Source of the DNA: a virus
Direction: 5' to 3' (one strand)
DNA: 64,000 nucleotides
IMG/VR virus record: IMGVR_UViG_3300010885_004110
Location: 32,001-96,000 of that record
Positions 1-24,378 of the stretch are shown piece after piece (the stretch's first letter is position 1; each line of letters begins with the position of its first letter). The notes beneath the pieces were generated by a model. That model had not been told where the DNA came from. It worked only from the letters and a program-made list of their open reading frames with translations, and made no database searches. A program made the translations under genes and the position numbers.

Positions 1-3000
1 TGTTGGATACACTGTAGCTCCGGTTGTATCATAGATTCCTAGATAATTTGTATTTTCATGATGTGACCATGTAACACCGTTATAGTAATACATGTAGACT
101 CTGCCACGACCAGTAGCAGCGCCGATTTGAGGATCGCACATTGAGCCGGTAGCTGAGACTGCCATGTAATATGTTTTTCCACTAACTCCAAAAGATACCG
201 AACTACCAAATCTTTCATCAGTTGCTGGTCTTGGACTTACAAAATTATAAACGTTTTCCCATTGATCATTTTGATACTTGTACAAAGATATCATGCCTTG
301 ATTAACAAATCCAGTGCCTTGACCAATAGGCGTTGCATCAACTATTGTTGCAGGCTCCCATAGATGAGAACCAATAGTTATCCAGATAGAGGAACCATCG
401 TCTCGTTCGTCTACCGGAACTCGAGGTACATTAGTAACTGCTTTCCATAACTTACCATCGCTTAATACGATCGATCCGGTGATATACTCAGAAGCAGGGT
501 CGTACTCTCCTATATAATGTGACGGTACTGCGGTTGCCCTTGGAGATGCAATAGCCAACCATTTATAGTCTGGACTAACTGCAATAACTTCTCCAAATAC
601 TCCAGCAACTGGCGCACTAAGATCATCAACTGGTGCAACCATCTGCTTTAATCCTAATGATTGATTTACTGCTGTTCTATCAGTGTAGATCATCACATAT
701 CCAGACGCAGGCAACGATGTTGCTATTTGTTTCAACGGTTCAATATATGCAATTGCCGTTCCGGTATTTAACGGAGCAGTAATACCATAATCAACTAGAT
801 CATAAGTTTGATATTGTTTAATTTTTTCAACAACTTCCCATTTTCCCGCTTCATTTGAATCAATCCAAATCTTAGAACCAGTTGCCAACAACGCTGTTGT
901 TCTATAATCTAAGTCCTGATAAGTGTTTGCTTTTGCCTCAGTAAAAATCCCAATGACTGCTGATGCACTATCTTCAATCGCCGGATTGTCACTGCTTGTT
1001 GTTTTAACTGTAATAGTTGTTGAGGTTGCTGCTGTTATTTTGTAGAATCCTGTTAGGTTAGCAACATAGATAATACCAATAATATCACCTATTGATAAAT
1101 TATGAATTCTACTTAAAGATAAAATTACATCGGTTCCATCTTTTAATACCGAAACAATTCTTAAAGATAGTGCTTCGTTGTATCTTAGGACTGTCCATTT
1201 GTAACTATCAAATGTTACCCAAAAATGATCGTTGTCTGCAACTGATGCAATGTTGATATTTAAAATATCATCTCTAATCTTAACAACAAAATCAATGTCG
1301 TTGAGATGGACAGGTCCTGCGGAACGAGTAGCTTTATCAAAAGATGCTAACGGTGTAATGTTAGATGTAAATGGCAACGGAGCAAGTGTAAACTTAGTTG
1401 GATCAATTCTTAAATTTTGATCAACAATAACTGTAGATTTTTCAGCAACAATTAATGTAGGTTGTGGATTTATTTGTATAGACTCTTTAGAAATTTCAAA
1501 CTCAATTTCTCTTAGTTGTTCAACTCCGCCCAATTCTCCAACTTTAAATGCCCATTCTTCGTTTAACACTACACTGTCGTCTGCTGTTCTACTAAGTTTA
1601 TCAAATACTTTAGTTACAGCATTGTTTGTGCCTTTTTCTCTAATAAATCCCTGATATAATCTAAATTGACTAATTTCATCTTCTGCTAACCCTTGGAGGT
1701 ATTCTCTTGGTTGGTATCCTATTGCATGTCTTGCTAACTCACGTTGGCTAGATCCTACGCCGTCGGCTTCAACTTCATAATAGTCTTCGAATTGATTAAT
1801 TCTATAATCAAAATTAGCTACTAACCCTTTAGTAGGAGTAGAATCTAATTTTGTCCAGTTAGCGTCTATAAATTCTTGAGTACCTAATTGATTAGTTTTA
1901 CTGGTCCAATTATATGACTTGTGTGCAACAATATCACCTAATCGATAATCAGTAAATGGTTGCCATACTGCGATATTGACATTGTCAAACAAGAAACCAG
2001 GACTGGTATAATCACCATCCCAATCCACCGTACGGAACCCTCGGCTCTTAATACGTTCTTGTCGATAGCCGGTTGGCTTATCATACATTACATCATTAAA
2101 CACTGTTCTGTCATCAAATATTACAATGTGTTCTTTGAGAACAAAGTTTGCTCTTATAAAATAGATACCACGATTTGTATTAGTAGTTGATAATATTAAA
2201 TTTTTATAATCTCGACTTACATTAATATATTGCGGGCCTAGTGGTGTGCCGTCATCTTGTAGAATCTGATAATCATAAAAACTATCTAAGAAACTATCTG
2301 CAACACCTAATGAAATACTAACATTAATTTTTTGAGAGTTAGGACTTAATGTTAATAACGATCCTTCACTCCAATTGTGTTTACTCCAAAACATAAATTC
2401 TTTTGCAGAGGTAAACCAATCCATAGAAGCCTGAATTGTTGTATCATAACCATCAAATACAAATCCAATACTAATTAAGTATTCTTGATAGCCTAACATA
2501 AAGTCAACAACTTCTTGAATTGAAGTCATTAATGTACCGTAATTCAATCGATTAGTTACTAATTTATTATAATTTCTTCTTTTAAATGCTTGAACTGCTC
2601 CGGTTACAGGCAGTGCAGAAAGTTGTTTCCATTCTGCACTATCAAATGTATTGTTACTAGTATGGCTTCTAAGACTTCTAAAATAAGTCTGGCCGTACTT
2701 AACAATTACACCGTTGCCGTAAAATTTGTTGGAAGTCCATGATAAGAAATTCTCACTAACTCCGCCAACAGCTATTAACGGATCACTCTGAGAGCTAATG
2801 GGTTTAAAATATGTAAAGAACGGATCTTTAGTATCATATCCGCTGATTTTCCAACCCCGAGTTGTTTTTTCAATAATGATACCGCTGTATGCTACAGAAT
2901 ATATTGGAGAACTTACATTAAAAATAATGTCATAGTTTTCTTGAGGAACAAAAACACTACTGGTTGTGGATTTAGGATTTTTACTATCTAATACATATTT

Positions 3001-16424: not shown

Positions 16425-17294
16425 ATGGAGAAACCACCGTCAATGACACCTATACCTAAAGTAAAATATCTAACGAACAAGGATCTACTAAAAGAAATAC
16501 ATTTAAGCAAAAATACATATTGTTCATATGTAGATCCTAGCTATGGAGATTATGATATTATTCTCCCTAGTCTAGAAAAACTTAATATTAGAACTGTAGC
16601 AGAAGCCAAAAGAAATAAAGCAATTAAAATGAGCAAGAAAGCTCACGAGATAGCGCAATCGGGAGGAAAGAAATTTCCTGCCAAAGACTACGAAGTAGAT
16701 TATAAAAAAATTCAGAAAACAGACGTAGTATTTCGTATTATGACGTTTGAACATGTGCCATTGGCGCCCGGTCGTAAAAAGACTCTCAAGAATACTGCTG
16801 ACAGTCATGAAAAAGTAAATTTTCCTCCATTCCAACATTGGAAATACGACGACAATGATAATTTGATCTTAGTCGGCAAGAGTCATTGGAAGGGAGACTT
16901 TGTTACTGGAACGTTTAATAAAGAACACGGAAAGATGACTAACAATCTTGCACGTATGTTTTTAAAACTTTGTGAGCGTTATGCTACTAGAGGTAATGTT
17001 CGTGGATACACCTACAACGATGAAATGCGTGGGCAGGCTATTCTTCAACTAACTCAAATAGGACTTCAATTCGATGAAAGCAAATCTGACAATCCTTTTG
17101 CTTATTATACTGCTGCTGTTACAAATAGTTTTGTGCGTATCATTAACATCGAGAAACGAAATCAAAATATCAGAGACGATATTCTCGAAATGAATGGTAT
17201 GAATCCTAGTTGGACTAGACAGAATGCCAGTGGAGGTAGTCAATATAACGGCCCTGCTGCTGCTGGAGACGGCGGTGGTAGCGATTGGGATTGA
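16425..17294 (+). CDS. gp55: Late-transcription sigma factor, T4 gp55-like (probable start MTPIPK at 16443)
   Basis: YLTNKDLLKEI...LCERYATRGNVRGYTYNDEMRGQAILQL...FDESKSDNPFAYYT...NSFVRIINIEKR; canonical gp55-gp47-gp46 synteny. Confidence 0.88.
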   Translation: MEKPPSMTPIPKVKYLTNKDLLKEIHLSKNTYCSYVDPSYGDYDIILPSLEKLNIRTVAEAKRNKAIKMSKKAHEIAQSGGKKFPAKDYEVDYKKIQKTDVVFRIMTFEHVPLAPGRKKTLKNTADSHEKVNFPPFQHWKYDDNDNLILVGKSHWKGDFVTGTFNKEHGKMTNNLARMFLKLCERYATRGNVRGYTYNDEMRGQAILQLTQIGLQFDESKSDNPFAYYTAAVTNSFVRIINIEKRNQNIRDDILEMNGMNPSWTRQNASGGSQYNGPAAAGDGGGSDWD

Positions 17295-18345: not shown

Positions 18346-20120
18346 TAAAAATTAAAAATTTAACAGTACGTAATTTTATGAGTGTTGGCGCACAAACTCA
18401 AGCTATTGGGTTTGACAAAGGAAATCTAACATTGGTGTTAGGTGAAAATTTAGATTTAGGTGGAGACGATAGTGGAGCTCGTAATGGTACTGGCAAAACA
18501 ACTATTATTAACGGACTCAGTTATGCTATTTTTGGCACAGCATTAACAAACATTAAAAAAGATAACCTCATTAATAAAATTAACGGCAAGGGAATGTTGT
18601 GTACTGTTAGTTTTGAGAAAGACGGTGTTGATTATCATATTGAAAGAGGTCGCAAGCCTAACCTATTGAAGTTTAGTATTAACGGACAAGAACAAGAATC
18701 TACAGATCGAGACGAAAGTCAAGGTGATAGTAGAGAAACACAGAAAGCCATCGATGAGTTATTCGGTCTAAGTCATGATATGTTTAAAAATATCATAGCA
18801 TTGAACACTTACACTGAACCGTTTTTGTCTATGAAATCTTCTGATCAAAGAAATATTATTGAGCAATTGTTAGGTATTACACAGTTGTCTGAAAAAGCAG
18901 AAGCATTGAAGGAACAAATTAAATTATCCAAAGATGCTATTGTAACAGAGAATACAAAAATTGAAACAATTAAAATTTCAAATGAAAAAATACAACAAAG
19001 TATTGATGCTCTAGAACGTAAACAACGCATGTGGGAAGAACAGCATGAAACTAATGTTACTAATCTAGCAAAAGCCATTGACAAACTATTGCATATTAAC
19101 ATCGACGATGAAATTCTGGCGCATCGAGCATTAGATGCACACAACGTAAAACGTAAAACTATTAACGATCTTAATAGTTGGATTAAGCGATGTGAATTAG
19201 ATGAAACTAGAGAACAAAAACTAATTGACACTCTTAAGATAGAAATTGCTAGTTTAGAAAATCATACATGTCATAGTTGTGGACAGTCATTTCATGACGA
19301 CAAACAAGTTATATTGCTAGAAAAGAAGAAAAAAGATCTACAAGAAGCTGCATTACAGGCATTAGCTACTAACGGTCAATTACTCGAACACTCCGAGGCG
19401 CTTGCAACTCTAGGAGAGTTAGATGCTATGCCAGAAGTAACTTACGATAATCTAGAACAAGCGTTAAATCACAAAAATACATTGAGTAGTCTAGAACGTG
19501 ATTTAGAAGTTAAATGTTCAGAAAGCAATCCTTATCTTGAACAAATTAACGAACTTAAAAATACCGCTGTACAAGACATCAACTGGGATTCAGTAAATCA
19601 ACTGGTTAAACTTAAAGATCATCAAGAGTTTTTATACAAGTTATTAACAAATAAAGATAGTTTTGTTCGTAAACGAATAATTGATCAGAACCTAGCCTTC
19701 TTAAATCAACGATTAACCTACTATCTTGATAAGATTGGATTACCACACATTGTAGAATTTCAGAACGATTTAACGGTGATTATTACACAACTTGGGCAGG
19801 ACTTAGACTTCGATAATCTCAGTAGAGGTGAACGAAATAGACTCATATTGAGCATGAGTTGGGCGTTCCGTGATGTGTGGGAAAACCTATATACTTCTAT
19901 TAATTTGTTGTTTATTGACGAATTAGTAGATAGCGGCATGGATTCTAGTGGTGTTGAATCCAGCATTGCGGTATTAAAACGCATGAGTCGAGAGCGTGAT
20001 AAGAATATTTTCTTAATTTCACATCGAGACGATTTAGCTAGCCGTGTAAATCATGTACTTAAAGTTATTAAAGAGAATGGATTTACTAGCTATTCAAATG
20101 ACGTGGAGATTGTTGCTTGA
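18342..20120 (+). CDS. gp46: Recombination ATPase subunit, gp46 (Rad50/SbcC)
   Basis: Walker A NGTGKTT, coiled coil with Zn-hook CHSC, signature LSRGE, Walker B LLFIDE, H-loop ISH. Confidence 0.95.
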   Translation: MIKIKNLTVRNFMSVGAQTQAIGFDKGNLTLVLGENLDLGGDDSGARNGTGKTTIINGLSYAIFGTALTNIKKDNLINKINGKGMLCTVSFEKDGVDYHIERGRKPNLLKFSINGQEQESTDRDESQGDSRETQKAIDELFGLSHDMFKNIIALNTYTEPFLSMKSSDQRNIIEQLLGITQLSEKAEALKEQIKLSKDAIVTENTKIETIKISNEKIQQSIDALERKQRMWEEQHETNVTNLAKAIDKLLHINIDDEILAHRALDAHNVKRKTINDLNSWIKRCELDETREQKLIDTLKIEIASLENHTCHSCGQSFHDDKQVILLEKKKKDLQEAALQALATNGQLLEHSEALATLGELDAMPEVTYDNLEQALNHKNTLSSLERDLEVKCSESNPYLEQINELKNTAVQDINWDSVNQLVKLKDHQEFLYKLLTNKDSFVRKRIIDQNLAFLNQRLTYYLDKIGLPHIVEFQNDLTVIITQLGQDLDFDNLSRGERNRLILSMSWAFRDVWENLYTSINLLFIDELVDSGMDSSGVESSIAVLKRMSRERDKNIFLISHRDDLASRVNHVLKVIKENGFTSYSNDVEIVA

Positions 20121-20347
20121 GTACAGATTCGCATGATAACATGATTCATGCATTTCAAGAATATTTTAAATGGCAGACCCGTTTTGAATACACAGGTGTA
20201 GACGAAGCGGGAATTAAGGCACGATATTGGTTATCAGAAATTAGAAACGAAGCAAGCATTAGGCGAACAGAAATCCAAAATAAGCGAAAAGATAGGCGAA
20301 CAGCCAGAAATGGCAAAACAGGAAGGCCACGTAAACTAATTACGTGA
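20117..20347 (+). CDS. Small basic hypothetical protein
   Basis: 76-aa ORF overlapping both neighbours by 4 nt (translational coupling); TTG start. Confidence 0.6.
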   Translation: MSTDSHDNMIHAFQEYFKWQTRFEYTGVDEAGIKARYWLSEIRNEASIRRTEIQNKRKDRRTARNGKTGRPRKLIT

Positions 20348-20781
20348 TGACATGGACTTATAAGAAGAAAGAAGTTACTGAAATCTCTGAAGATTACCTT
20401 GGTTTCGTATATCTTATTACTAATGTTGTCTCTGGTCGCAAGTATATAGGCAAAAAACTAGCTAAGTTTGCAAAGACAACTTATAAAACGGTTACTTTGA
20501 AGAACGGCAAAAAGAAGAAAAAGAAAATTAGAGGCAAGATCGAAAGCGACTGGAAGGACTATTATGGTTCTAGCGATGCGTTAACAGCAGATATACAGGC
20601 ATTAGGCAAAGACAATTTCACCAGAGAAATACTATTCTACTGCAAAAACAAATCAGAATGCAGTTATATTGAGGCAAGAGAACAATTCAAACATAAAGTT
20701 CTAGAATCAACTGACTGGTACAACGGTCATATACAAGTTCGAGTTCACGGCTCACACATTATTAAGAATAAGCTACCGTAG
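20344..20781 (+). CDS. Stand-alone GIY-YIG nuclease domain protein
   Basis: GFVYLITN...GRKYIGKK, YYGSS, conserved Glu (YIEAREQF) and YN; no appended DNA-binding domain. Confidence 0.85.
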   Translation: MMTWTYKKKEVTEISEDYLGFVYLITNVVSGRKYIGKKLAKFAKTTYKTVTLKNGKKKKKKIRGKIESDWKDYYGSSDALTADIQALGKDNFTREILFYCKNKSECSYIEAREQFKHKVLESTDWYNGHIQVRVHGSHIIKNKLP

Positions 20782-21280
20782 GCACATAGTAGGCTCAATA
20801 AATTTAGGCAAGTTATCGCCAAACAAGCCCGCACAGGCGATTATATTGTGCCCAAAATCCGTTCTGATGTGTGACGGTAAGGAATCTCTTATTGGCGAAG
20901 AGTAGCAAATCACTATCCTTAACAGGACGACGATCGGATATGCCTTTCATAAAACCGGTTTGATTTGTAAGAGAATTCAGTAGACAAGGCTAAAAGAAGG
21001 GAGAAAAACCCTTAGACTAATGTATGTGTTAGCGTATGTATGTTAGTCCACCGTCAGTAATAAGACAAAGCTCGTGGTACCGGCTGACCGCCACTGTAAT
21101 GCTTTAACGCTAAGTGTATTGTGCAACTCACATAATGCTAACTTTACCCTGCTCGGGTAAAGTGTGACTGAACAATCTACATAATACTTAAACTGCTTCG
21201 CAGTAAAATATCTCATCATTAAAGAAGAAAAAATTCGTTGAGCGTTAAGCGAAAACGAATACGAGCGTTAGCTCGTAAAT
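20782..21280 (+). ncRNA. Candidate large structured non-coding RNA (or structured origin) downstream of the GIY-YIG gene
   Basis: ~500 nt without an ORF in a gene-dense genome; more than ten local and long-range helices found by eye, several using G-U pairs on the + strand (see finding). Confidence 0.55.
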
Positions 21281-21283
21281 ACA

Positions 21284-21290
21284 ATAAATA
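21284..21290 (+). promoter_or_regulatory. Late promoter box ATAAATA
   Basis: Upstream of the 638-aa ORF; a second TAAATA lies at 21276-21281. Confidence 0.55.
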
Positions 21291-21307
21291 ACACATATAT
21301 CTTTAGG

Positions 21308-23224
21308 TTGAGCATGAGAATACAACAATTATCTACTAGTAAGCATTATCTCTATGAAGGACTGGACTATAGTAATAGAAAAACTATGGTTTTATGGGAA
21401 AGTGCTGGCTTACAATTAAAAGAAGCAGCTCTAACAGCTGATCAAATACAAAGTCTATTTGCTGAGATTGAGAAATCAGCAACAGATGCTGGGGGTAATC
21501 GTACAGCCCTAGGTATTGGCAAAGATGCAATGTCTGCTGTTAATAAAGCATGGGAAGATCTAAAAACAAAGATTCAAGATAGTGGTCCGATTAAAGCTGT
21601 TGATCAGAAATATGATGATGTTGTTGGGAAGATCGAAAAAGGTTTAGGTGGCCCAGACAATGCTGTTAATCAAGTAATTCAAAAATATCGTCAATTTGCT
21701 AAAGATCATCCTATTGCACAGGGTCTAATCTATTCAGCACTAATTGCTGCTGCTGGTATTAGTGGTGCAGGTCTAGGTGGAGCAGCAGTATTAGGACTGC
21801 TCAAGATGACAGACAAGCTGCTACAAGGTGAAAAATTTAGTAGTGCTGCATATGCTGGCGGTAAAACTGGTGCTATGGCCTACGGTGCAAGTAAAATTGG
21901 AGATTATGTCAAGGGCAAAATGGCAGACAAAGATGCCTATGATGCCATGGGTGATGCACAGGATCTAAGACAACAACTAGGCGATCCTAATGGCGAATTG
22001 CCTGGCGCTAGTTTAAAAGTAGGCCAAGAACTTCCGGACGGCGAAACTATTACTGGATTAGATTCAAGTAACCCAAATGCAGGTGTTACTATTACAAAAC
22101 CAGATGGCGGAACATATACAGTTAGTCGAGACACTGCCCAGTCAATGACAGGTCAAACTGGTATTAGTCCTCAATCAACTGGCCCTGTTTCAACAGGTGC
22201 TGCTAGTGATCCTTCTGCAGGTGTTACTGACACTGTAGCCAAGCGTGGTAATTCGGGTTGGGACACAATGAAGGCAAATACAAATCCTGATGGTAGTCCA
22301 TTGACAGTAGATCAAATAAATGCTGCTAAGGCTTCGTTACGTGCAGGTAATGCAACTGATATGTCCACCCCGACAGATGCTGGATCAACAGTTGCATCTA
22401 AAGCAGCAGATGTTGCTGTTGGTGCTGGTAGTCCGCCACCGGCCGGAGCAGCATTTAATTCTGCCTATCTACAACAGGTAGTAGATGCAGAAGGTAAAAG
22501 CGGTATAAGATTTAAAATTAGTCCCGAGGATGCACAAAAAGCTCTAGATTGGCAAGACTCAAATGGCGGACAACTTGTACAGGCTGCTAGTACCGCAGGC
22601 AAAGCTGCCTCTGGATATAGTAAAGACTACTTAGAAAAAGTCTTAAGTGGTGATCATCCACGCCCAATGATTTCAAAAGAAAAAGCTGCTGCCTTATTGA
22701 AGAGTATGGAAAGCGTTAATCGTAGTGGAAAACGATTAAGTGAAGGTCAGATTTATCTAGTTTTTAATCGTGTCTGTACTGTTAACAATTATATGTTATC
22801 AGAAGGTCGATTAGTTGAAGGTCCTATGGATTGGGCTAAAGGACTTGCAGGTAAAGCAATAGGTAAAGCTAAGACAGTTGGACATAATTTAACAACTAAA
22901 GTCACTGCCGACAAATTAAACTCAGCTTGGCAAAAAGCTGGAAGTCCAATGGACAGTGCCAAACTTAAGGCATTCTTAACACAGCAAGGTGTTTCACCGG
23001 AAGTAGTAGACACTGTATATTCATCTATGAAAATAACAGATGCACCAGCCGATCAACAAGGACAAGCAGTTGACTTTGAACAAGTTAAAGCAATGATTGC
23101 TAAATTACCTTTAGATAGAAAAGAAAGATTATTAAAATATATACAAAAGAATTCAGGATCTGCTGCGCCAGCAGCACCGAATAGAGATGCCGGAGACGGC
23201 CGCATAGAACCAACACTCGCATAA
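21308..23224 (+). CDS. Putative internal head / ejection protein (probable start MRIQQL at 21314)
   Basis: Late promoter; several L-x-E motifs resembling gp21 cleavage sites; Gly/Ala hydrophobic segment IAQGLIYSALIAAAGISGAGLGGAAVLGLL. Confidence 0.5.
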   Translation: MSMRIQQLSTSKHYLYEGLDYSNRKTMVLWESAGLQLKEAALTADQIQSLFAEIEKSATDAGGNRTALGIGKDAMSAVNKAWEDLKTKIQDSGPIKAVDQKYDDVVGKIEKGLGGPDNAVNQVIQKYRQFAKDHPIAQGLIYSALIAAAGISGAGLGGAAVLGLLKMTDKLLQGEKFSSAAYAGGKTGAMAYGASKIGDYVKGKMADKDAYDAMGDAQDLRQQLGDPNGELPGASLKVGQELPDGETITGLDSSNPNAGVTITKPDGGTYTVSRDTAQSMTGQTGISPQSTGPVSTGAASDPSAGVTDTVAKRGNSGWDTMKANTNPDGSPLTVDQINAAKASLRAGNATDMSTPTDAGSTVASKAADVAVGAGSPPPAGAAFNSAYLQQVVDAEGKSGIRFKISPEDAQKALDWQDSNGGQLVQAASTAGKAASGYSKDYLEKVLSGDHPRPMISKEKAAALLKSMESVNRSGKRLSEGQIYLVFNRVCTVNNYMLSEGRLVEGPMDWAKGLAGKAIGKAKTVGHNLTTKVTADKLNSAWQKAGSPMDSAKLKAFLTQQGVSPEVVDTVYSSMKITDAPADQQGQAVDFEQVKAMIAKLPLDRKERLLKYIQKNSGSAAPAAPNRDAGDGRIEPTLA

Positions 23225-23235
23225 GGAATAACACC

Positions 23236-24378
23236 ATGAGAATTAATGAATTTTTAACCGAATCGGAATTGCAAGAAGGCCCAATTCTAAATAAAATAGG
23301 AGCAGGCATCGGCAAAGCTGTTGGAACAGCAGCCAAGGGAGTCGGAGCAGTTGCTGGCGGAGTTGCGGGATTAGGTCGTGCAATCAAAAAAGGTTTTACG
23401 GCAGGTAGAGACACAGTCGGTGGAGCAGGCGACGATGAAGCAGATGCAGCACCAGCAGGAGGAGGTGCCTCAGCAGCACCAGCAGCACCAGCAGGTAATG
23501 CACCAGCAGGTAATGCACCAGCAGCGCCAACAGCACCAGCAGGTAATGCGCCAGCAGCACCAGCAGGTAATGCACCAGCAGGTAATGCACCAGCAGCGCC
23601 AGCAGCACCAGCAGCACCAGCAGCACCAGCAGGTAATGCACCAGCAGCGCCGGCAGCACCTAAATCACAATTTGGAAAATTATCAGCAGCAGCAAATGGC
23701 GAACCCGCAGCACCGGCAGCTAATCCTAAAGCAGATACAGCATATGCTCAAGCGCAAAAAGCAATTGCAGGATTAGATTCTAAACAAAAAGGTGAGTTAG
23801 TTGCAATGTTGCAGAAAGAAGTTAGTAAAAAACCGCCTGCTGCTCCGAAGACAAAAGCTGATCCAGGTGCAGGAGCAATGGGTAACATGGCAGGACAGTT
23901 AGCTAAAGGTGGAGCAGCAAAACCAAACACAATGGCTAATGCTCCAGTGAGCAAAACAAATACTGCCAAGCCCGGTAATCCAAATGCAGCACCAGCCGGT
24001 AACTACAATGGAAATACCGGAGCACCGGTATCAGGTAAAGCTAAAGCAGATGCAGAATTTGATGCTAGTCCAGAAGGTCAAGCAATGCAAGCTAAAGTTG
24101 ATGCAATGGGAACTACTCCAACAAAACCAAAAAGAGCATCAAGAGCTAAAGCGCCAGCAGCAGCGCCTGTAGATCCTACAGCAGCACCAGGTGCTGAGCC
24201 AACAACTCCAAAGAAGAAAGGTGGACGTAAGAAGCCAGCAGCACCAAGTCAAGCAGAGATTGATGCAGACAGAGATCGTATCATGGGTAACTTTACCGAC
24301 AGCGTTAATCGATATAAGAAAGTTATAGCAGAAAATGCTATTAGGTCCGGAGAGATTAGTATTTTTAGAAAGCGTTAA
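23236..24378 (+). CDS. Pro/Ala-rich putative internal head protein
   Basis: AAGGA RBS; N-terminus MRINEFLTESELQEG resembles T4-type capsid-targeting/propeptide sequences; low-complexity APAGN/APA repeats. Confidence 0.6.
   Translation: MRINEFLTESELQEGPILNKIGAGIGKAVGTAAKGVGAVAGGVAGLGRAIKKGFTAGRDTVGGAGDDEADAAPAGGGASAAPAAPAGNAPAGNAPAAPTAPAGNAPAAPAGNAPAGNAPAAPAAPAAPAAPAGNAPAAPAAPKSQFGKLSAAANGEPAAPAANPKADTAYAQAQKAIAGLDSKQKGELVAMLQKEVSKKPPAAPKTKADPGAGAMGNMAGQLAKGGAAKPNTMANAPVSKTNTAKPGNPNAAPAGNYNGNTGAPVSGKAKADAEFDASPEGQAMQAKVDAMGTTPTKPKRASRAKAPAAAPVDPTAAPGAEPTTPKKKGGRKKPAAPSQAEIDADRDRIMGNFTDSVNRYKKVIAENAIRSGEISIFRKR
23471..23660 (+). repeat. Coding tandem repeats (GCACCAGCA 9-mer and GCACCAGCAGGTAAT 15-mer units)
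   Basis: Directly visible; encode APA/APAGN. Confidence 0.9.

What the first reader, a model, noticed from the sequence alone, without database searches (positions are those of the whole stretch)
20782..21230. Large ornate non-coding RNA candidate immediately downstream of a stand-alone GIY-YIG nuclease
Seen: the longest intergenic stretch in the window, packed with pairings. Local helices: ATCGCC/GGCGAT (20815/20836); CTCTT/AAGAG; TCCT/AGGA; GCCTT/AAGGC (20942/20986); a GACTAA...TTAGTC hairpin (21015-21048) with several G-U pairs that favour the + strand; AAAGC[GTGG..CGG-CTGA-CCG-CCAC]GCTTT; and TAAGT-G-TATTGTG/CATAATACTTA enclosing ACTTTACCC/GGGTAAAGT. Long-range pairs: ATCCG/CGGAT (20857/20935), GCAAATCA/TGATTTGT (20905/20961) and TGACGGT/ACCGTCA (20872/21050). 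The last two cross the first, implying pseudoknots. No terminator separates the region from the GIY-YIG gene, and that nuclease lacks the DNA-binding domain homing endonucleases normally carry. Established: HEARO/omega RNAs pair with compact nucleases, and phages carry giant RNAs such as GOLLD and ROOL. Inference: an undescribed large ncRNA, possibly the RNA partner or guide of the minimal GIY-YIG protein, or a structured replication origin next to gp46/47.
Basis: partly seen in the sequence, partly recalled or inferred. Interest (0 to 1): 0.75.

Follow-up and report, generated by a model that had tools for sequence, protein, structure and literature searches.

The report
Full-length twin-box Polynucleobacter-1 phage RNA
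The gene-free 526 bases behind a small nuclease gene of this uncultured freshwater T4-like phage encode a real, knotted non-coding RNA of about 455 bases whose first third is an orphan motif catalogued in 2010 and whose uncatalogued rest carries one short word twice, for a reader that is still unknown.

Summary
Real feature, partly known. Window 20823-21277 (+) is a ~455-nt structured RNA. Its 5' third (20826-20970) is a full-length match to Rfam RF01718, Polynucleobacter-1 (77.3 bits, cut-off 37). The remaining ~300 nt match nothing in Rfam 15, but are conserved with it in 122 fetched viral contigs.

On a MAFFT alignment of 64 distinct RNAs, 94 pairs in 21 helices, including three pseudoknots, are 90.8% paired. 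Shuffles give 77.9% and slid partners 34-43%.

His three long-range pairs except GCAAATCA/TGATTTGT do not.

The 3' core carries CTC+7-mer and TCT+the same 7-mer, identical in 104 of 104 distinct RNAs, with 16 different words.

The RNA follows a 145-aa GIY-YIG gene in 103 of 122 loci, or a PD-(D/E)XK gene in 5. However, three cultured phages with the GIY-YIG homologue have no such RNA. Diverged bacterial copies sit by short integrases instead.

Function is unknown, and a guide role is not shown. This scan has found the same family before on other genomes.

The parts
20344..20781 (+). 145-aa GIY-YIG nuclease gene, catalytic domain only (PHROG 447, mis-named 'NAD synthetase'). Its stop lies 41 nt before the RNA.
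   Evidence: Pfam SegE_GIY-YIG E = 6e-34, covering residues 4-130. PHROG 447. Conserved G20 F21 V22 Y23, Y34, G36, R94, E95, E110, N127 in 88 distinct homologues. AlphaFold2 pLDDT 89.5, nearest meaningful fold the I-TevI catalytic domain.
20823..21277 (+). Whole structured RNA (extent of the family profile plus the last hairpin). True 5' and 3' ends are not mapped.
   Evidence: nhmmer profile hit at positions 3-441 of 443. 94 pairs are 90.8% paired with covariation. Strand from 609 G.U against 133 A.C cells.
20826..20970 (+). 5' domain, Rfam RF01718 Polynucleobacter-1. Helices: P1 20831-35/20847-51, P2 20859-61/20875-77, P3 20886-90/20898-902, P4 20905-12/20961-68, P5 20916-18/20925-27, P6 20932-37/20955-60.
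   Evidence: cmscan 77.3 bits against a gathering score of 37, model positions 1-141 of 141. Helices 2-8.
20826..20839 (+). Pseudoknot PK0: leader 20826-29 pairs with the P1 loop 20836-39.
   Evidence: Helix 1: 87% paired, and 2 of 4 pairs show changes on both sides (GC 48 / AU 12 at columns 6-17).
20998..21012 (+). P7 hairpin (AGGG/CCCT), preceded by the conserved AAGGCTAAAAGA.
   Evidence: Helix 9. A hairpin in 64 of 64 sequences.
21015..21048 (+).
   Evidence: A hairpin of 8 bp or more in 64 of 64 sequences although the sequence varies. Helix 10.
21029..21113 (+). Pseudoknot PKa: 21029-35 (TTAGCGT) pairs with 21107-13 (ACGCTAA).
   Evidence: Helix 11: 96.8% paired, and 7 of 7 pairs show changes on both sides.
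21053..21088 (+). Pseudoknot PKb: 21053-57 (GTCAG) pairs with 21084-88 (CTGAC) inside the invariant GGTACCGG...ACCGCC.
   Evidence: Helix 12: 99.7% paired, and 3 of 5 pairs show changes on both sides (UA 38 / CG 26, among others).
21068..21104 (+). P9 (21068-71/21101-04) enclosing P10 (21074-78/21090-94).
   Evidence: Helices 13 and 14: 97.7% and 97.8% paired. 4 of 4 pairs in P9 and 2 of 5 in P10 show changes on both sides.
21127..21136 (+). Twin box 1: CTC followed by the word ACATAAT. Its T-C-A pairs with TGA at 21165-67.
   Evidence: Helix 16 is 100% paired.
21142..21162 (+). P11 hairpin between the two boxes (CTTTACCC/GGGTAAAG), followed by the conserved TGTGAC.
   Evidence: Helix 17 (87% paired, 3 pairs with changes on both sides).
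21176..21185 (+). Twin box 2: TCT followed by the same word ACATAAT.
   Evidence: The word is identical to that of box 1 in 104 of 104 distinct RNAs, with 16 different words. CTC and TCT are invariant in 104 of 104.
21193..21203 (+). P12 small hairpin in a linker of variable length. Not universal.
   Evidence: A hairpin in 31 of 64 sequences. Helix 19 is 78% paired.
21234..21277 (+). Two terminal hairpins: P13 (21234-39/21254-59, loop GAGCG..AGCGAA) and P14 (21260-66/21271-77). Probable 3' end.
   Evidence: P13 is a hairpin in 64 of 64 sequences. P14 is helix 21: 100% paired, and 5 of 6 pairs show changes on both sides. There is no T-run on the + strand.

Best explanation
**Shown.** Window 20823-21277 (+) is a full-length member of a large family of pseudoknotted non-coding RNAs. 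Family members are 405-621 nt long, mostly 415-470 nt. They occur in uncultured freshwater T4-like phages. Diverged copies occur in small genomes of the order that holds locus L195.

- The 5' third is the orphan Rfam motif Polynucleobacter-1.
- The 3' two thirds are the more widely kept core. Phage contigs whose 5' domain is a different, non-Rfam one still keep it.
- The core shows the same 7-letter word twice, 49 nt apart. One copy follows CTC and the other follows TCT.

**Inferred.**

- The RNA is made on the + strand as the tail of the nuclease operon's transcript, or from a start just behind the nuclease gene. It ends at the two terminal hairpins.
- It acts in trans as a folded RNA. It offers two largely unpaired copies of one word to a two-fold partner: a dimer, or two copies of a nucleic acid. 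That partner is not part of the RNA itself.
- It is not a 5' leader of the next gene.
- It is not an obligate cofactor of the GIY-YIG enzyme. It shares with that enzyme a conserved place at the end of the DNA-metabolism module.
For: **Identity**
- RF01718 match at 77.3 bits against a cut-off of 37, full length.

**Family and extent**
- A profile of the whole element hits 122 of 348 held loci, all of them viral contigs. 77 hits are full length.
- 12 of 12 'group B' loci tested have no Rfam hit but keep the 3' core.

**Structure**
- 94 pairs are 90.8% paired, against 77.9% for shuffles (0 of 500 reach the observed value) and 34-43% for slid partners.
- 64 pairs show changes on both sides.
- P7, P8 and P13 fold as hairpins in 64 of 64 sequences.

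**Strand**
- 609 G.U cells against 133 A.C cells.
- The RNA is on the same strand as the upstream nuclease ORF in 103 of 103 loci.

**Twin boxes**
- The word is identical in 104 of 104 distinct RNAs, with 16 words.
- The variable box letters share full mutual information only with their twin letter.
- There are 11 words among the 64 aligned RNAs, so at least 10 changes. Parsimony on a FastTree tree gives 34.

**Not a leader of the next gene**
- The next ORF is on the - strand in 55, on the + strand in 47, and absent in 7 of 109 loci. These ORFs fall in 22 protein clusters.

**Not obligate for the enzyme**
- Model R1 of the core scores 147.5 bits on its own genome. It finds nothing at E<=1 in three whole cultured-phage genomes that encode the homologue.

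**Weak hint of transcription**
- Contigs of RNA libraries, which may hold DNA, lie on 20604-20861. That spans the end of the gene and the start of the RNA. Others lie on 21122-21282.
Against: - No transcript ends are mapped. The RNA-library data are contigs that cannot show transcription.
- No partner for the boxes was found. The RNA's own word and its complement are not enriched within about 10 kb: 89 against 83.4 +/- 9.6, 74 against 63.5 +/- 7.4, and 25 against 21.2.
- The tight linkage to a nuclease gene speaks for a functional tie that this explanation plays down. Starting from the protein, 64 of 70 loci have the RNA downstream. It persists across 15 different genes upstream and 22 downstream.
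- The single-sequence folding z-score is only -2.1.
- P14 has no T-run, so the 3' end is a guess.
Confidence: 0.6

Rival explanations
1. The RNA is the specificity module of the neighbouring catalytic-core-only DNA enzymes: GIY-YIG, PD-(D/E)XK, and in bacteria a short tyrosine recombinase. In this reading the twin boxes are two guide segments that read the same short word in two DNA or RNA partners.
For: - A GIY-YIG ORF lies upstream on the same strand in 103 of 122 loci.
- In 5 of the 8 loci that lack it, a PDDEXK_15 ORF takes its place. Cluster membership is by blastp, and one member was scanned in Pfam.
- Starting from the protein, 64 of 70 loci have the RNA downstream.
- The pair is kept across 15 different upstream and 22 different downstream gene clusters.
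- In 2 of 3 bacterial loci a Phage_integrase ORF lies downstream: 212 aa whose Pfam catalytic domain spans residues 30-202, or 150 aa cut by the contig end.
- All three enzymes lack a separate DNA-binding domain.
- The word varies between elements.
Against: - Homologues of 41-52% identity occur in 505 cultured phage records. Three whole genomes searched have no RNA core.
- 9 loci have another ORF between the gene and the RNA, and one locus has the RNA upstream on the other strand.
- Only 16 words occur, differing mainly by A/G at two places. That is far less variety than a guide would show, and 7 nt is short.
- No complementary sites are enriched in the flanks.
- There is no Rfam match to HEARO or other guide RNAs.
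Confidence: 0.07
2. It is a cis-acting 3' element of the nuclease operon's mRNA. It would act as a stabiliser, processing site or terminator that sets the level of the upstream genes.
For: - The RNA always lies directly 3' of a + strand ORF. The median gap is 17 nt.
- No terminator lies between them.
- It ends in two conserved hairpins.
- An RNA-library contig bridges the end of the gene and the start of the RNA (weak).
Against: - 450 nt with three pseudoknots, invariant joining strands and twin boxes is far more than a stabiliser needs.
- The same RNA follows three different kinds of ORF: GIY-YIG, PDDEXK, and inserted ORFs of 235-296 aa.
- In bacteria it follows no ORF at all. The upstream gene there is divergent.
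Confidence: 0.12
3. It is a cis-regulatory leader or riboswitch for the downstream gene. This is the 2010 reading of Polynucleobacter-1 ('cis-reg? y, switch? ?').
For: - Table 1 of PMC2864571 (passages read).
- In the window and in 47 of 109 loci the next ORF is on the same strand, starting a median of 37 nt after the RNA.
- In bacterial loci same-strand ORFs follow the RNA.
Against: - In 55 of 109 phage loci the next ORF is on the opposite strand. The downstream ORFs belong to 22 unrelated clusters.
- The RNA ends in a strong conserved hairpin.
- A late-promoter-like CAATAAATA (a recalled motif) lies between the RNA and the next gene at 21282-21290.
Confidence: 0.06
4. It is a DNA-level element such as a replication origin. 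The twin boxes would be iteron-like direct repeats for a DNA-binding protein, possibly with the transcript acting as an R-loop primer.
For: - The element lies next to gp46/gp47, at the border between the replication and structural modules.
- Direct repeats that change in step are what iteron-initiator pairs do. This parallel is recalled, not tested.
- Three loci without GIY-YIG carry arrays of TAGGCAC repeats just upstream.
Against: - Helices are kept through G.U pairs on one strand only: 609 against 133, or 90.8% against 82.6% paired. That fits an RNA, not duplex DNA.
- Most of the conservation lies in paired and joining regions of a fold, not in repeats.
- No skew analysis was done.
Confidence: 0.06

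Closest known systems
Polynucleobacter-1 RNA motif (Rfam RF01718; Weinberg et al. 2010, Genome Biol 11:R31, PMC2864571)
   Same: Window 20826-20970 matches the whole 141-position model at 77.3 bits. The helices P1-P6 are the same and covary. The habitat is the same (fresh water). The motif is also found in 4 of 151 genomes of the order holding L195, 3 of them above the cut-off.
   Different: The Rfam model covers only the first third. The element goes on for about 300 nt more, with two further pseudoknots, the twin boxes and two terminal hairpins.

The leader also pairs with the P1 loop (PK0), which the Rfam structure line leaves unpaired.

The 2010 table rates the motif as probably cis-regulatory. 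In phages the next gene is on the other strand in 55 of 109 loci.

The paper's additional files, which hold its description and flanking genes, could not be read.
HEARO / omega RNAs of IscB and TnpB (nuclease-associated guide RNAs)
   Same: A large structured RNA sits next to a compact nuclease gene in a mobile genome. The RNA lies directly 3' of the ORF, as with TnpB (recalled).
   Different: - There is no Rfam match to these families.
- The nuclease fold is GIY-YIG or PD-(D/E)XK, not RuvC/HNH.
- There is no hypervariable terminal guide. The variable part is a 7-letter word present twice, with only 16 variants.
- The protein family exists without the RNA.
IS110 bridge RNA (recalled: two loops that read target and donor DNA for a recombinase)
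   Same: One folded RNA carries two separate short specificity segments. In bacteria it lies beside a small recombinase gene.
   Different: - The recombinase here is a tyrosine recombinase (Pfam Phage_integrase), not DEDD.
- The phage copies sit beside nucleases in lytic-type T4-like genomes.
- The two segments are identical rather than independent.
- Nothing was tested about DNA pairing.
GOLLD and ROOL (large orphan RNAs often found in phages and prophages; recalled)
   Same: A large, intricately folded, phage-borne RNA of unknown function, found by comparative genomics.
   Different: There is no Rfam match to either. This RNA is smaller (about 450 nt), has a different architecture, a fixed position behind a nuclease gene, and the twin boxes.

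Membership tests
Rfam RF01718 Polynucleobacter-1 | Score at or above the curated gathering score, over the whole model | tested here: met
   77.3 bits against 37, model positions 1-141 of 141, E = 1.2e-14 on the whole window.
Rfam RF01718 Polynucleobacter-1 | Helices of the model are kept by compensatory changes in relatives | tested here: met
   Helices 2-8 (P1-P6) are 81-98% paired, with changes on both sides in 22 of 30 pairs.
Rfam RF01718 Polynucleobacter-1 | Cis-regulatory position in the 5' UTR of a downstream gene (the 2010 rating 'probably') | tested here: not met
   The next ORF is on the opposite strand in 55 of 109 phage loci. This is a functional guess of the authors, not a membership criterion of Rfam.
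Guide RNAs of compact nucleases (HEARO, omega RNA) | Match to the family's covariance model | tested here: not met
   No such family appears at gathering score on the window, or at E<=10 on 20600-21500.
Guide RNAs of compact nucleases (HEARO, omega RNA) | Constant linkage of the RNA with its nuclease family | tested here: inconclusive
   For: 103 of 122 loci, and 64 of 70 when starting from the protein. Against: homologues in three cultured phages have no RNA core in the genome, and bacterial copies have no GIY-YIG.
Guide RNAs of compact nucleases (HEARO, omega RNA) | A variable guide segment with matching targets | tested here: not met
   The only co-ordinately variable segment is the 7-letter twin word (16 variants). 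Its complement is not enriched in about 0.86 Mb of flanks. Host genomes were not testable.
   No Intron_gpI hit at E<=10. The ORFs for gp46, the 76-aa protein and GIY-YIG abut or overlap, leaving no room.
GIY-YIG nuclease superfamily (the neighbouring protein) | Domain match and conserved catalytic-type residues. The Tyr, Tyr, Arg, Glu, Asn pattern is recalled. | tested here: met
   PF19835 E = 6e-34. Y23, Y34, R94, E110 and N127 are kept in at least 97% of 88 homologues. Foldseek gives probability 0.97 to the I-TevI catalytic domain, but with E = 0.08-0.14. No PDB hit by sequence.
Intrinsic terminator (for the 3' end) | GC-rich hairpin followed by a T-run on the transcribed strand | tested here: not met
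   P14 is a conserved hairpin, but the scan finds no + strand terminator-like site in 20000-21600. The - strand reading of P14 does score.

The most novel reading that the evidence does not exclude
The RNA is a programmable recognition module for DNA enzymes that consist of a catalytic core only. Three unrelated folds lie beside the same RNA family: GIY-YIG, PD-(D/E)XK and a short tyrosine recombinase. The two identical words would then read one short sequence in two nucleic-acid partners. Examples are the two sites that are cut, or the two sites that are joined. That would be a new kind of RNA-directed DNA cleavage or recombination in phages and genomic islands.
Probability: 0.05. Interest if true: 0.95.

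Novelty: new variant of a known kind. Interest (0 to 1): 0.6.

Why it matters
Polynucleobacter-1 has been an orphan entry since 2010, described as a 141-nt, probably cis-regulatory motif. The data here change that picture in three ways:
- It is the head of a ~450-nt, multiply knotted RNA.
- It is chiefly a phage RNA. In 55 of 109 phage loci it is not a leader of the next gene.
- Its most widely conserved part is an uncatalogued core with two always-identical copies of a short word that keeps changing.

An RNA of this size and conservation is expected to do something mechanistically specific. Most of the known large bacterial RNAs are ribozymes, RNP scaffolds or guides.

Its steady place beside minimal DNA enzymes gives a concrete, testable lead.

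The family is common in lake viromes. That makes it a good target for transcript mapping, structure determination and genetics, once a cultured host-phage pair is found.

Tried and rejected
- **Similarity to cultured phages.** blastn (distant mode) of 20700-21320 against 50,697 phage records gave no match. No cultured carrier is known, and only three whole genomes were searched with the covariance model.
- **Cellular genomes by pattern.** The 15-base pattern gave 120 loci in genome contigs. None matched the RNA profile, so they are chance hits.
- **tRNA or tmRNA.** None in the window.
- **T4 endonuclease II idea for the protein.** There is no sequence match to any PDB chain at a meaningful E-value. 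The fold search points to I-TevI instead. Idea dropped.
- **A partner for the twin word inside the RNA.** No column other than the twin letter shares more than part of the information.
- **A partner in the flanks.** Neither the RNA's own word (sense or antisense) nor its complement followed by three purines is enriched. The antisense count, 74 against 63.5 +/- 7.4, is not significant.
- **Other ideas for the word, considered by eye only and left.**
  - Anticodon-loop complement: position 37 would be a pyrimidine.
  - CsrA GGA site: 57 of 104 words begin AGA.
  - C/D box.
  - Promoter -10 mimic.
  - Stop-codon mimic: U-R-A is not kept in bacterial and some group B copies.
- **TTAGGCA before the RNA as a general promoter word.** 7 matches in the window against 11.1 expected. 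Rejected.
- **Helix Pc (TAAGT/ACTTA).** Only 3 pairs at 86% on A1, and under 50% on A2. It was left out of the model.
- **RNA-library contigs.** These are Logan contigs, not reads. They cannot show transcription, ends or strand. Stretches of the RNA without cover in these four runs mean nothing.
- **Not attempted.** No complex prediction, because no protein-protein claim is made. No GC-skew profile was run. The additional files of PMC2864571 could not be read and may hold the authors' list of flanking genes.
- **Rows dropped.** 6 of 70 distinct full-length RNAs, those with insertions that made them longer than 500 nt, were left out of alignment A1. A2 used 43 of 89 available core sequences, chosen for length (185 nt or less) and diversity.
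Full report
**What is there**

The window is part of a 122.6-kb IMG/VR virus record with T4-type genes on the + strand:
- a gp55-like late sigma factor (PHROG 12791)
- gp47 (Metallophos) and gp46 (AAA_23/SMC_N)
- a 76-aa ORF
- a 145-aa GIY-YIG ORF at 20344-20781 (Pfam SegE_GIY-YIG, E = 6e-34, residues 4-130)

After that ORF come 526 nt without any ORF of 60 aa or more. This is by far the longest such gap in the window; the next is 157 nt. Two low-complexity proteins without family matches follow, and then a gp26-type baseplate gene on the other strand.

**Known part**

cmscan of the whole window against Rfam 15 gives one match over the gathering score: RF01718, Polynucleobacter-1, at 20826-20970 (+). 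It scores 77.3 bits against a cut-off of 37 and covers the model from end to end.
- A permissive scan of 20600-21500 adds only two chance-level rows.
- The motif comes from Weinberg et al. 2010 (PMC2864571).
- I read Table 1 and its legend in passages. It is rated 'RNA? y, cis-reg? y, switch? ?', with taxa 'Burkholderiales, fresh water/estuary'.
- It is the only paper in the held library that contains the name.
- A second search on GIY-YIG, noncoding RNA, T4-like and covariation brought nothing relevant by title or abstract.
- The paper's additional files could not be read.

**The element is three times longer than the Rfam motif**

- A 15-base pattern from the motif fetched 119 viral loci. 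The window's motif sequence found a relative in 44 of them.
- Aligning the motif with 420 nt of downstream sequence showed that the whole gap is conserved.
- A pattern from the downstream part (GGTACCGGNNNACCGCC) fetched 120 further stretches.
- A profile of the whole element then hit 122 of the 348 loci held. All hits are viral contigs. None of the 120 pattern loci from cellular genomes hit, and none of the three cultured phage loci did.
- 77 hits are full length, and 70 of those are less than 95% identical to each other. Lengths run from 405 to 621 nt.
- About 25 loci match only the 3' 230 nt. 12 of 12 of these tested have no Rfam hit, and their 5' part is a different conserved sequence.
- So the uncatalogued 3' core is the more widely kept part.

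**Is it a folded RNA**

The single sequence gives little signal: MFE z = -2.14 on the + strand and -1.84 on the - strand. The comparative evidence is strong.

On a MAFFT alignment that was not fitted to any structure (A1: 64 of the 70 distinct RNAs; the 6 with large insertions were dropped), I wrote a structure of 94 pairs in 21 helices. It came from an unbiased scan for complementary covarying columns, together with RNAalifold. The counts on it are:
- 90.8% of 5801 cells are standard pairs.
- Shuffles give 77.9% (0 of 500 reach the observed value).
- Sliding the 3' partner by 1-3 columns gives 34-43%.
- 64 of 94 pairs have changes on both sides.
- The covariation score is 0.383, against 0.169 for shuffles and 0.05-0.09 for slid partners.

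Three pseudoknots covary:
- PK0 (20826-29 with 20836-39)
- PKa (21029-35 with 21107-13): 7 of 7 pairs show double changes
- PKb (21053-57 with 21084-88): 99.7% paired

Three hairpins whose sequences are too variable for MAFFT still fold as single hairpins in 64 of 64 sequences: P7, P8 and P13. P12 does so in only 31 of 64.

G.U cells outnumber A.C cells 609 to 133. The fold therefore works on the + strand (90.8% paired) better than on the - strand (82.6%).

Supported:
- CTCTT/AAGAG
- TCC/GGA
- GCAAATCA/TGATTTGT
- the GACTAA...TTAGTC hairpin
- AAAGC/GCTTT with GTGG/CCAC
- ACTTTACCC/GGGTAAAGT

Not supported:
- ATCCG/CGGAT: 51% paired
- TGACGGT/ACCGTCA: 63%
- GCCTT/AAGGC: 63%
- TATTGTG/CATAAT: 53%
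- TAAGT/ACTTA: 74%

His CGG-CTGA-CCG hairpin is invariant. Its 'loop' in fact pairs with GTCAG upstream (PKb).

**Twin boxes**

In the 3' core, CTC plus a 7-mer (21127-36) is followed 49 nt later by TCT plus the same 7-mer (21176-85).
- The two 7-mers are identical in 104 of 104 distinct RNAs with a complete core. There are 16 different words, and CTC and TCT are invariant.
- The window has ACATAAT, seen once among the 104.
- The letters that vary share all their information with the twin letter and little with any other column.
- Among the 64 aligned RNAs there are 11 words, so at least 10 changes. Parsimony on a FastTree tree built without the box columns gives 34. That is close to shuffled labels (39.2), and the tree's resolution is uncertain.
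- Box 1's U-C-x pairs with UGA of the conserved GUGUGAC (100% paired). Box 2's U-x-y pairs with the three bases that follow (91%). This leaves the rest of both words unpaired in the model.
- I found no reader for the word. Its own word, its complement, and its complement plus three purines are not enriched in 0.86 Mb of flanks.

**Neighbourhood**

- A homologue of the GIY-YIG ORF lies upstream on the same strand in 103 of 122 loci. 11 loci have too little upstream sequence to tell, and 8 have at least 600 nt upstream and no homologue.
- In 5 of those 8, the ORF directly before the RNA belongs to one blastp cluster. The member of that cluster that I scanned is Pfam PDDEXK_15, E = 7e-27.
- 9 loci have another ORF between the GIY-YIG gene and the RNA.
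- The gene before GIY-YIG falls in 15 clusters, and the ORF after the RNA in 22. That ORF is on the - strand in 55, on the + strand in 47, and missing in 7 of 109 loci.
- Starting from the protein instead (80 best loci of 596 confirmed), 70 loci have at least 700 nt downstream:
  - 63 show the RNA by profile.
  - 1 more shows it with covariance model R1.
  - 1 has it upstream on the other strand.
  - 5 have none.

**The protein**

- 88 distinct homologues are 45-92% identical to the window's protein. They keep G20 F21 V22 Y23, Y34-x-G36, R94, E95, E110 and N127.
- The AlphaFold2 model is confident (pLDDT 89.5).
- Foldseek finds nothing at E<=0.001. It gives probability 0.97 to the I-TevI catalytic domain (1mk0, 1ln0; E = 0.08-0.14).
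- A lysine-rich beta hairpin (residues 41-67) is inserted in the domain.
- PHROG 447, to which the protein belongs, is labelled 'NAD synthetase'. The Pfam match shows that label to be a mis-name.
- tblastn finds the family in 505 cultured phage records, all under 60% identity, mostly cyanophages.
- In Melnitz-3, cyanophage ACG-2014f_Syn7803US26 and phiN3, protein genes follow the homologue directly or after 148 nt.
- Model R1 of the 3' core scores 147.5 bits on its own genome. It finds nothing at E<=1 in those three whole genomes.
- So the enzyme family does not need this RNA.

**Cellular copies**

- RF01718 matches 4 of 151 genomes drawn from the order of the genome that holds L195 (record title 'uncultured beta proteobacterium'). 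3 of the 4 are over the cut-off, and all four genomes are 1.7-1.9 Mb.
- In the three loci over the cut-off (L351, L353, L355), the profile finds both the 5' and the 3' part.
- Two of them show twin words, GGCGAAA and AGCGAAA.
- No GIY-YIG lies beside them.
- In 2 of 3, a short Phage_integrase ORF follows on the same strand: 212 aa with the catalytic domain at residues 30-202, or 150 aa cut by the contig end.
- In 2 of 3, a DUF6641 gene lies divergently upstream.

**Expression**

20 runs hold part of the stretch, and 6 of them are on record as RNA. I laid four RNA runs. All are contigs, which may come from DNA in the library and cannot show ends or strand.
- Pieces at least 85% alike lie on 20604-20861, which spans the end of the gene and the start of the RNA.
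- Other pieces lie on 20907-20946, 21122-21282 and 21190-21335.
- This is a weak hint at most.

**Reading**

- Shown: a real, large, pseudoknotted RNA family on the + strand. It is a member and an extension of RF01718. It is chiefly phage-borne, it has a twin-word core, and it sits behind a minimal nuclease gene.
- Inferred: it is transcribed with or just behind the nuclease operon, ends at P13/P14, and acts in trans by offering two copies of a word to a two-fold partner.
- The guide-RNA reading stays open at about 5-7%. It is attractive because three unrelated catalytic-core-only DNA enzymes neighbour the same RNA. It is weakened by enzyme homologues that occur without the RNA, by the small variety of words, and by the lack of any matching target.

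**Earlier notes of this scan**

At least eight earlier notes describe the same family on other genomes. They name the same closest known family and the same twin boxes. One reports the link to DNA-cutting or DNA-joining enzymes in bacterial islands. My own calls reproduce these points on this window. I did not take their conclusions as evidence.

Noticed in passing
L282, L328, L247, L337, L275, L268, L263, L273, L306, L269, L257, L284 (about 215 nt between the GIY-YIG stop and the 3' core): A second class of the RNA ('group B'). It has the same 3' twin-box core but a different conserved 5' domain that matches no Rfam family. L120 and L059 look intermediate.
   Followed up: partly
L308, L267, L254 (upstream of the RNA): Three loci without a GIY-YIG gene carry arrays of TAGGCAC-like repeats just before the RNA. 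A single (T)AGGCA also sits about 20 nt before the RNA in many other loci, including window 20805-20810. The word is not enriched in the window as a whole (7 matches against 11.1 expected).
   Followed up: partly
L389:2033-2216 (-), with GIY-YIG at 2501-2923 (+): One locus has the RNA core upstream of the nuclease gene and on the opposite strand. This is the only inverted arrangement seen.
   Followed up: no
L353 (G051:C4), L351, L355: Bacterial copies of the RNA have twin words GGCGAAA or AGCGAAA. They lie between a divergent DUF6641 gene and a short, catalytic-domain-only tyrosine recombinase (or a YbjN-like ORF). A GNAT acetyltransferase gene is nearby in L353.
   Followed up: partly
window 20344-20781, and 505 phage records: The GIY-YIG family PHROG 447 is annotated 'NAD synthetase' in many GenBank phage records. 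Pfam and the fold say it is a GIY-YIG nuclease, so the name looks like a propagated error. The model shows a lysine-rich beta hairpin (residues 41-67) inserted in the domain.
   Followed up: partly
window 21308-23224 and 23236-24378: Two Ala/Gly/Pro-rich low-complexity proteins (638 and 380 aa) have no Pfam or PHROG match. ORFs at this position differ from phage to phage (clusters C6, C8, C9, C18, C23, C25, C26, C31).
   Followed up: no
window 16425-17294: The late sigma factor (gp55-like, PHROG 12791) is 289 aa. That is much longer than the 181-position profile of PHROG 234, which matches only residues 141-268. It ends in a Gly-rich tail.
   Followed up: no
window 21282-21290: CAATAAATA lies between the last RNA hairpin and the next gene. 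It resembles the T4 late promoter TATAAATA (recalled). Similar words stand there in relatives whose next gene is on the + strand.
   Followed up: no
L048, L008, L279, L104 and others (upstream of GIY-YIG): Radical SAM/SPASM proteins (336-525 aa) often precede the GIY-YIG gene in place of gp46 and the small ORF.
   Followed up: no
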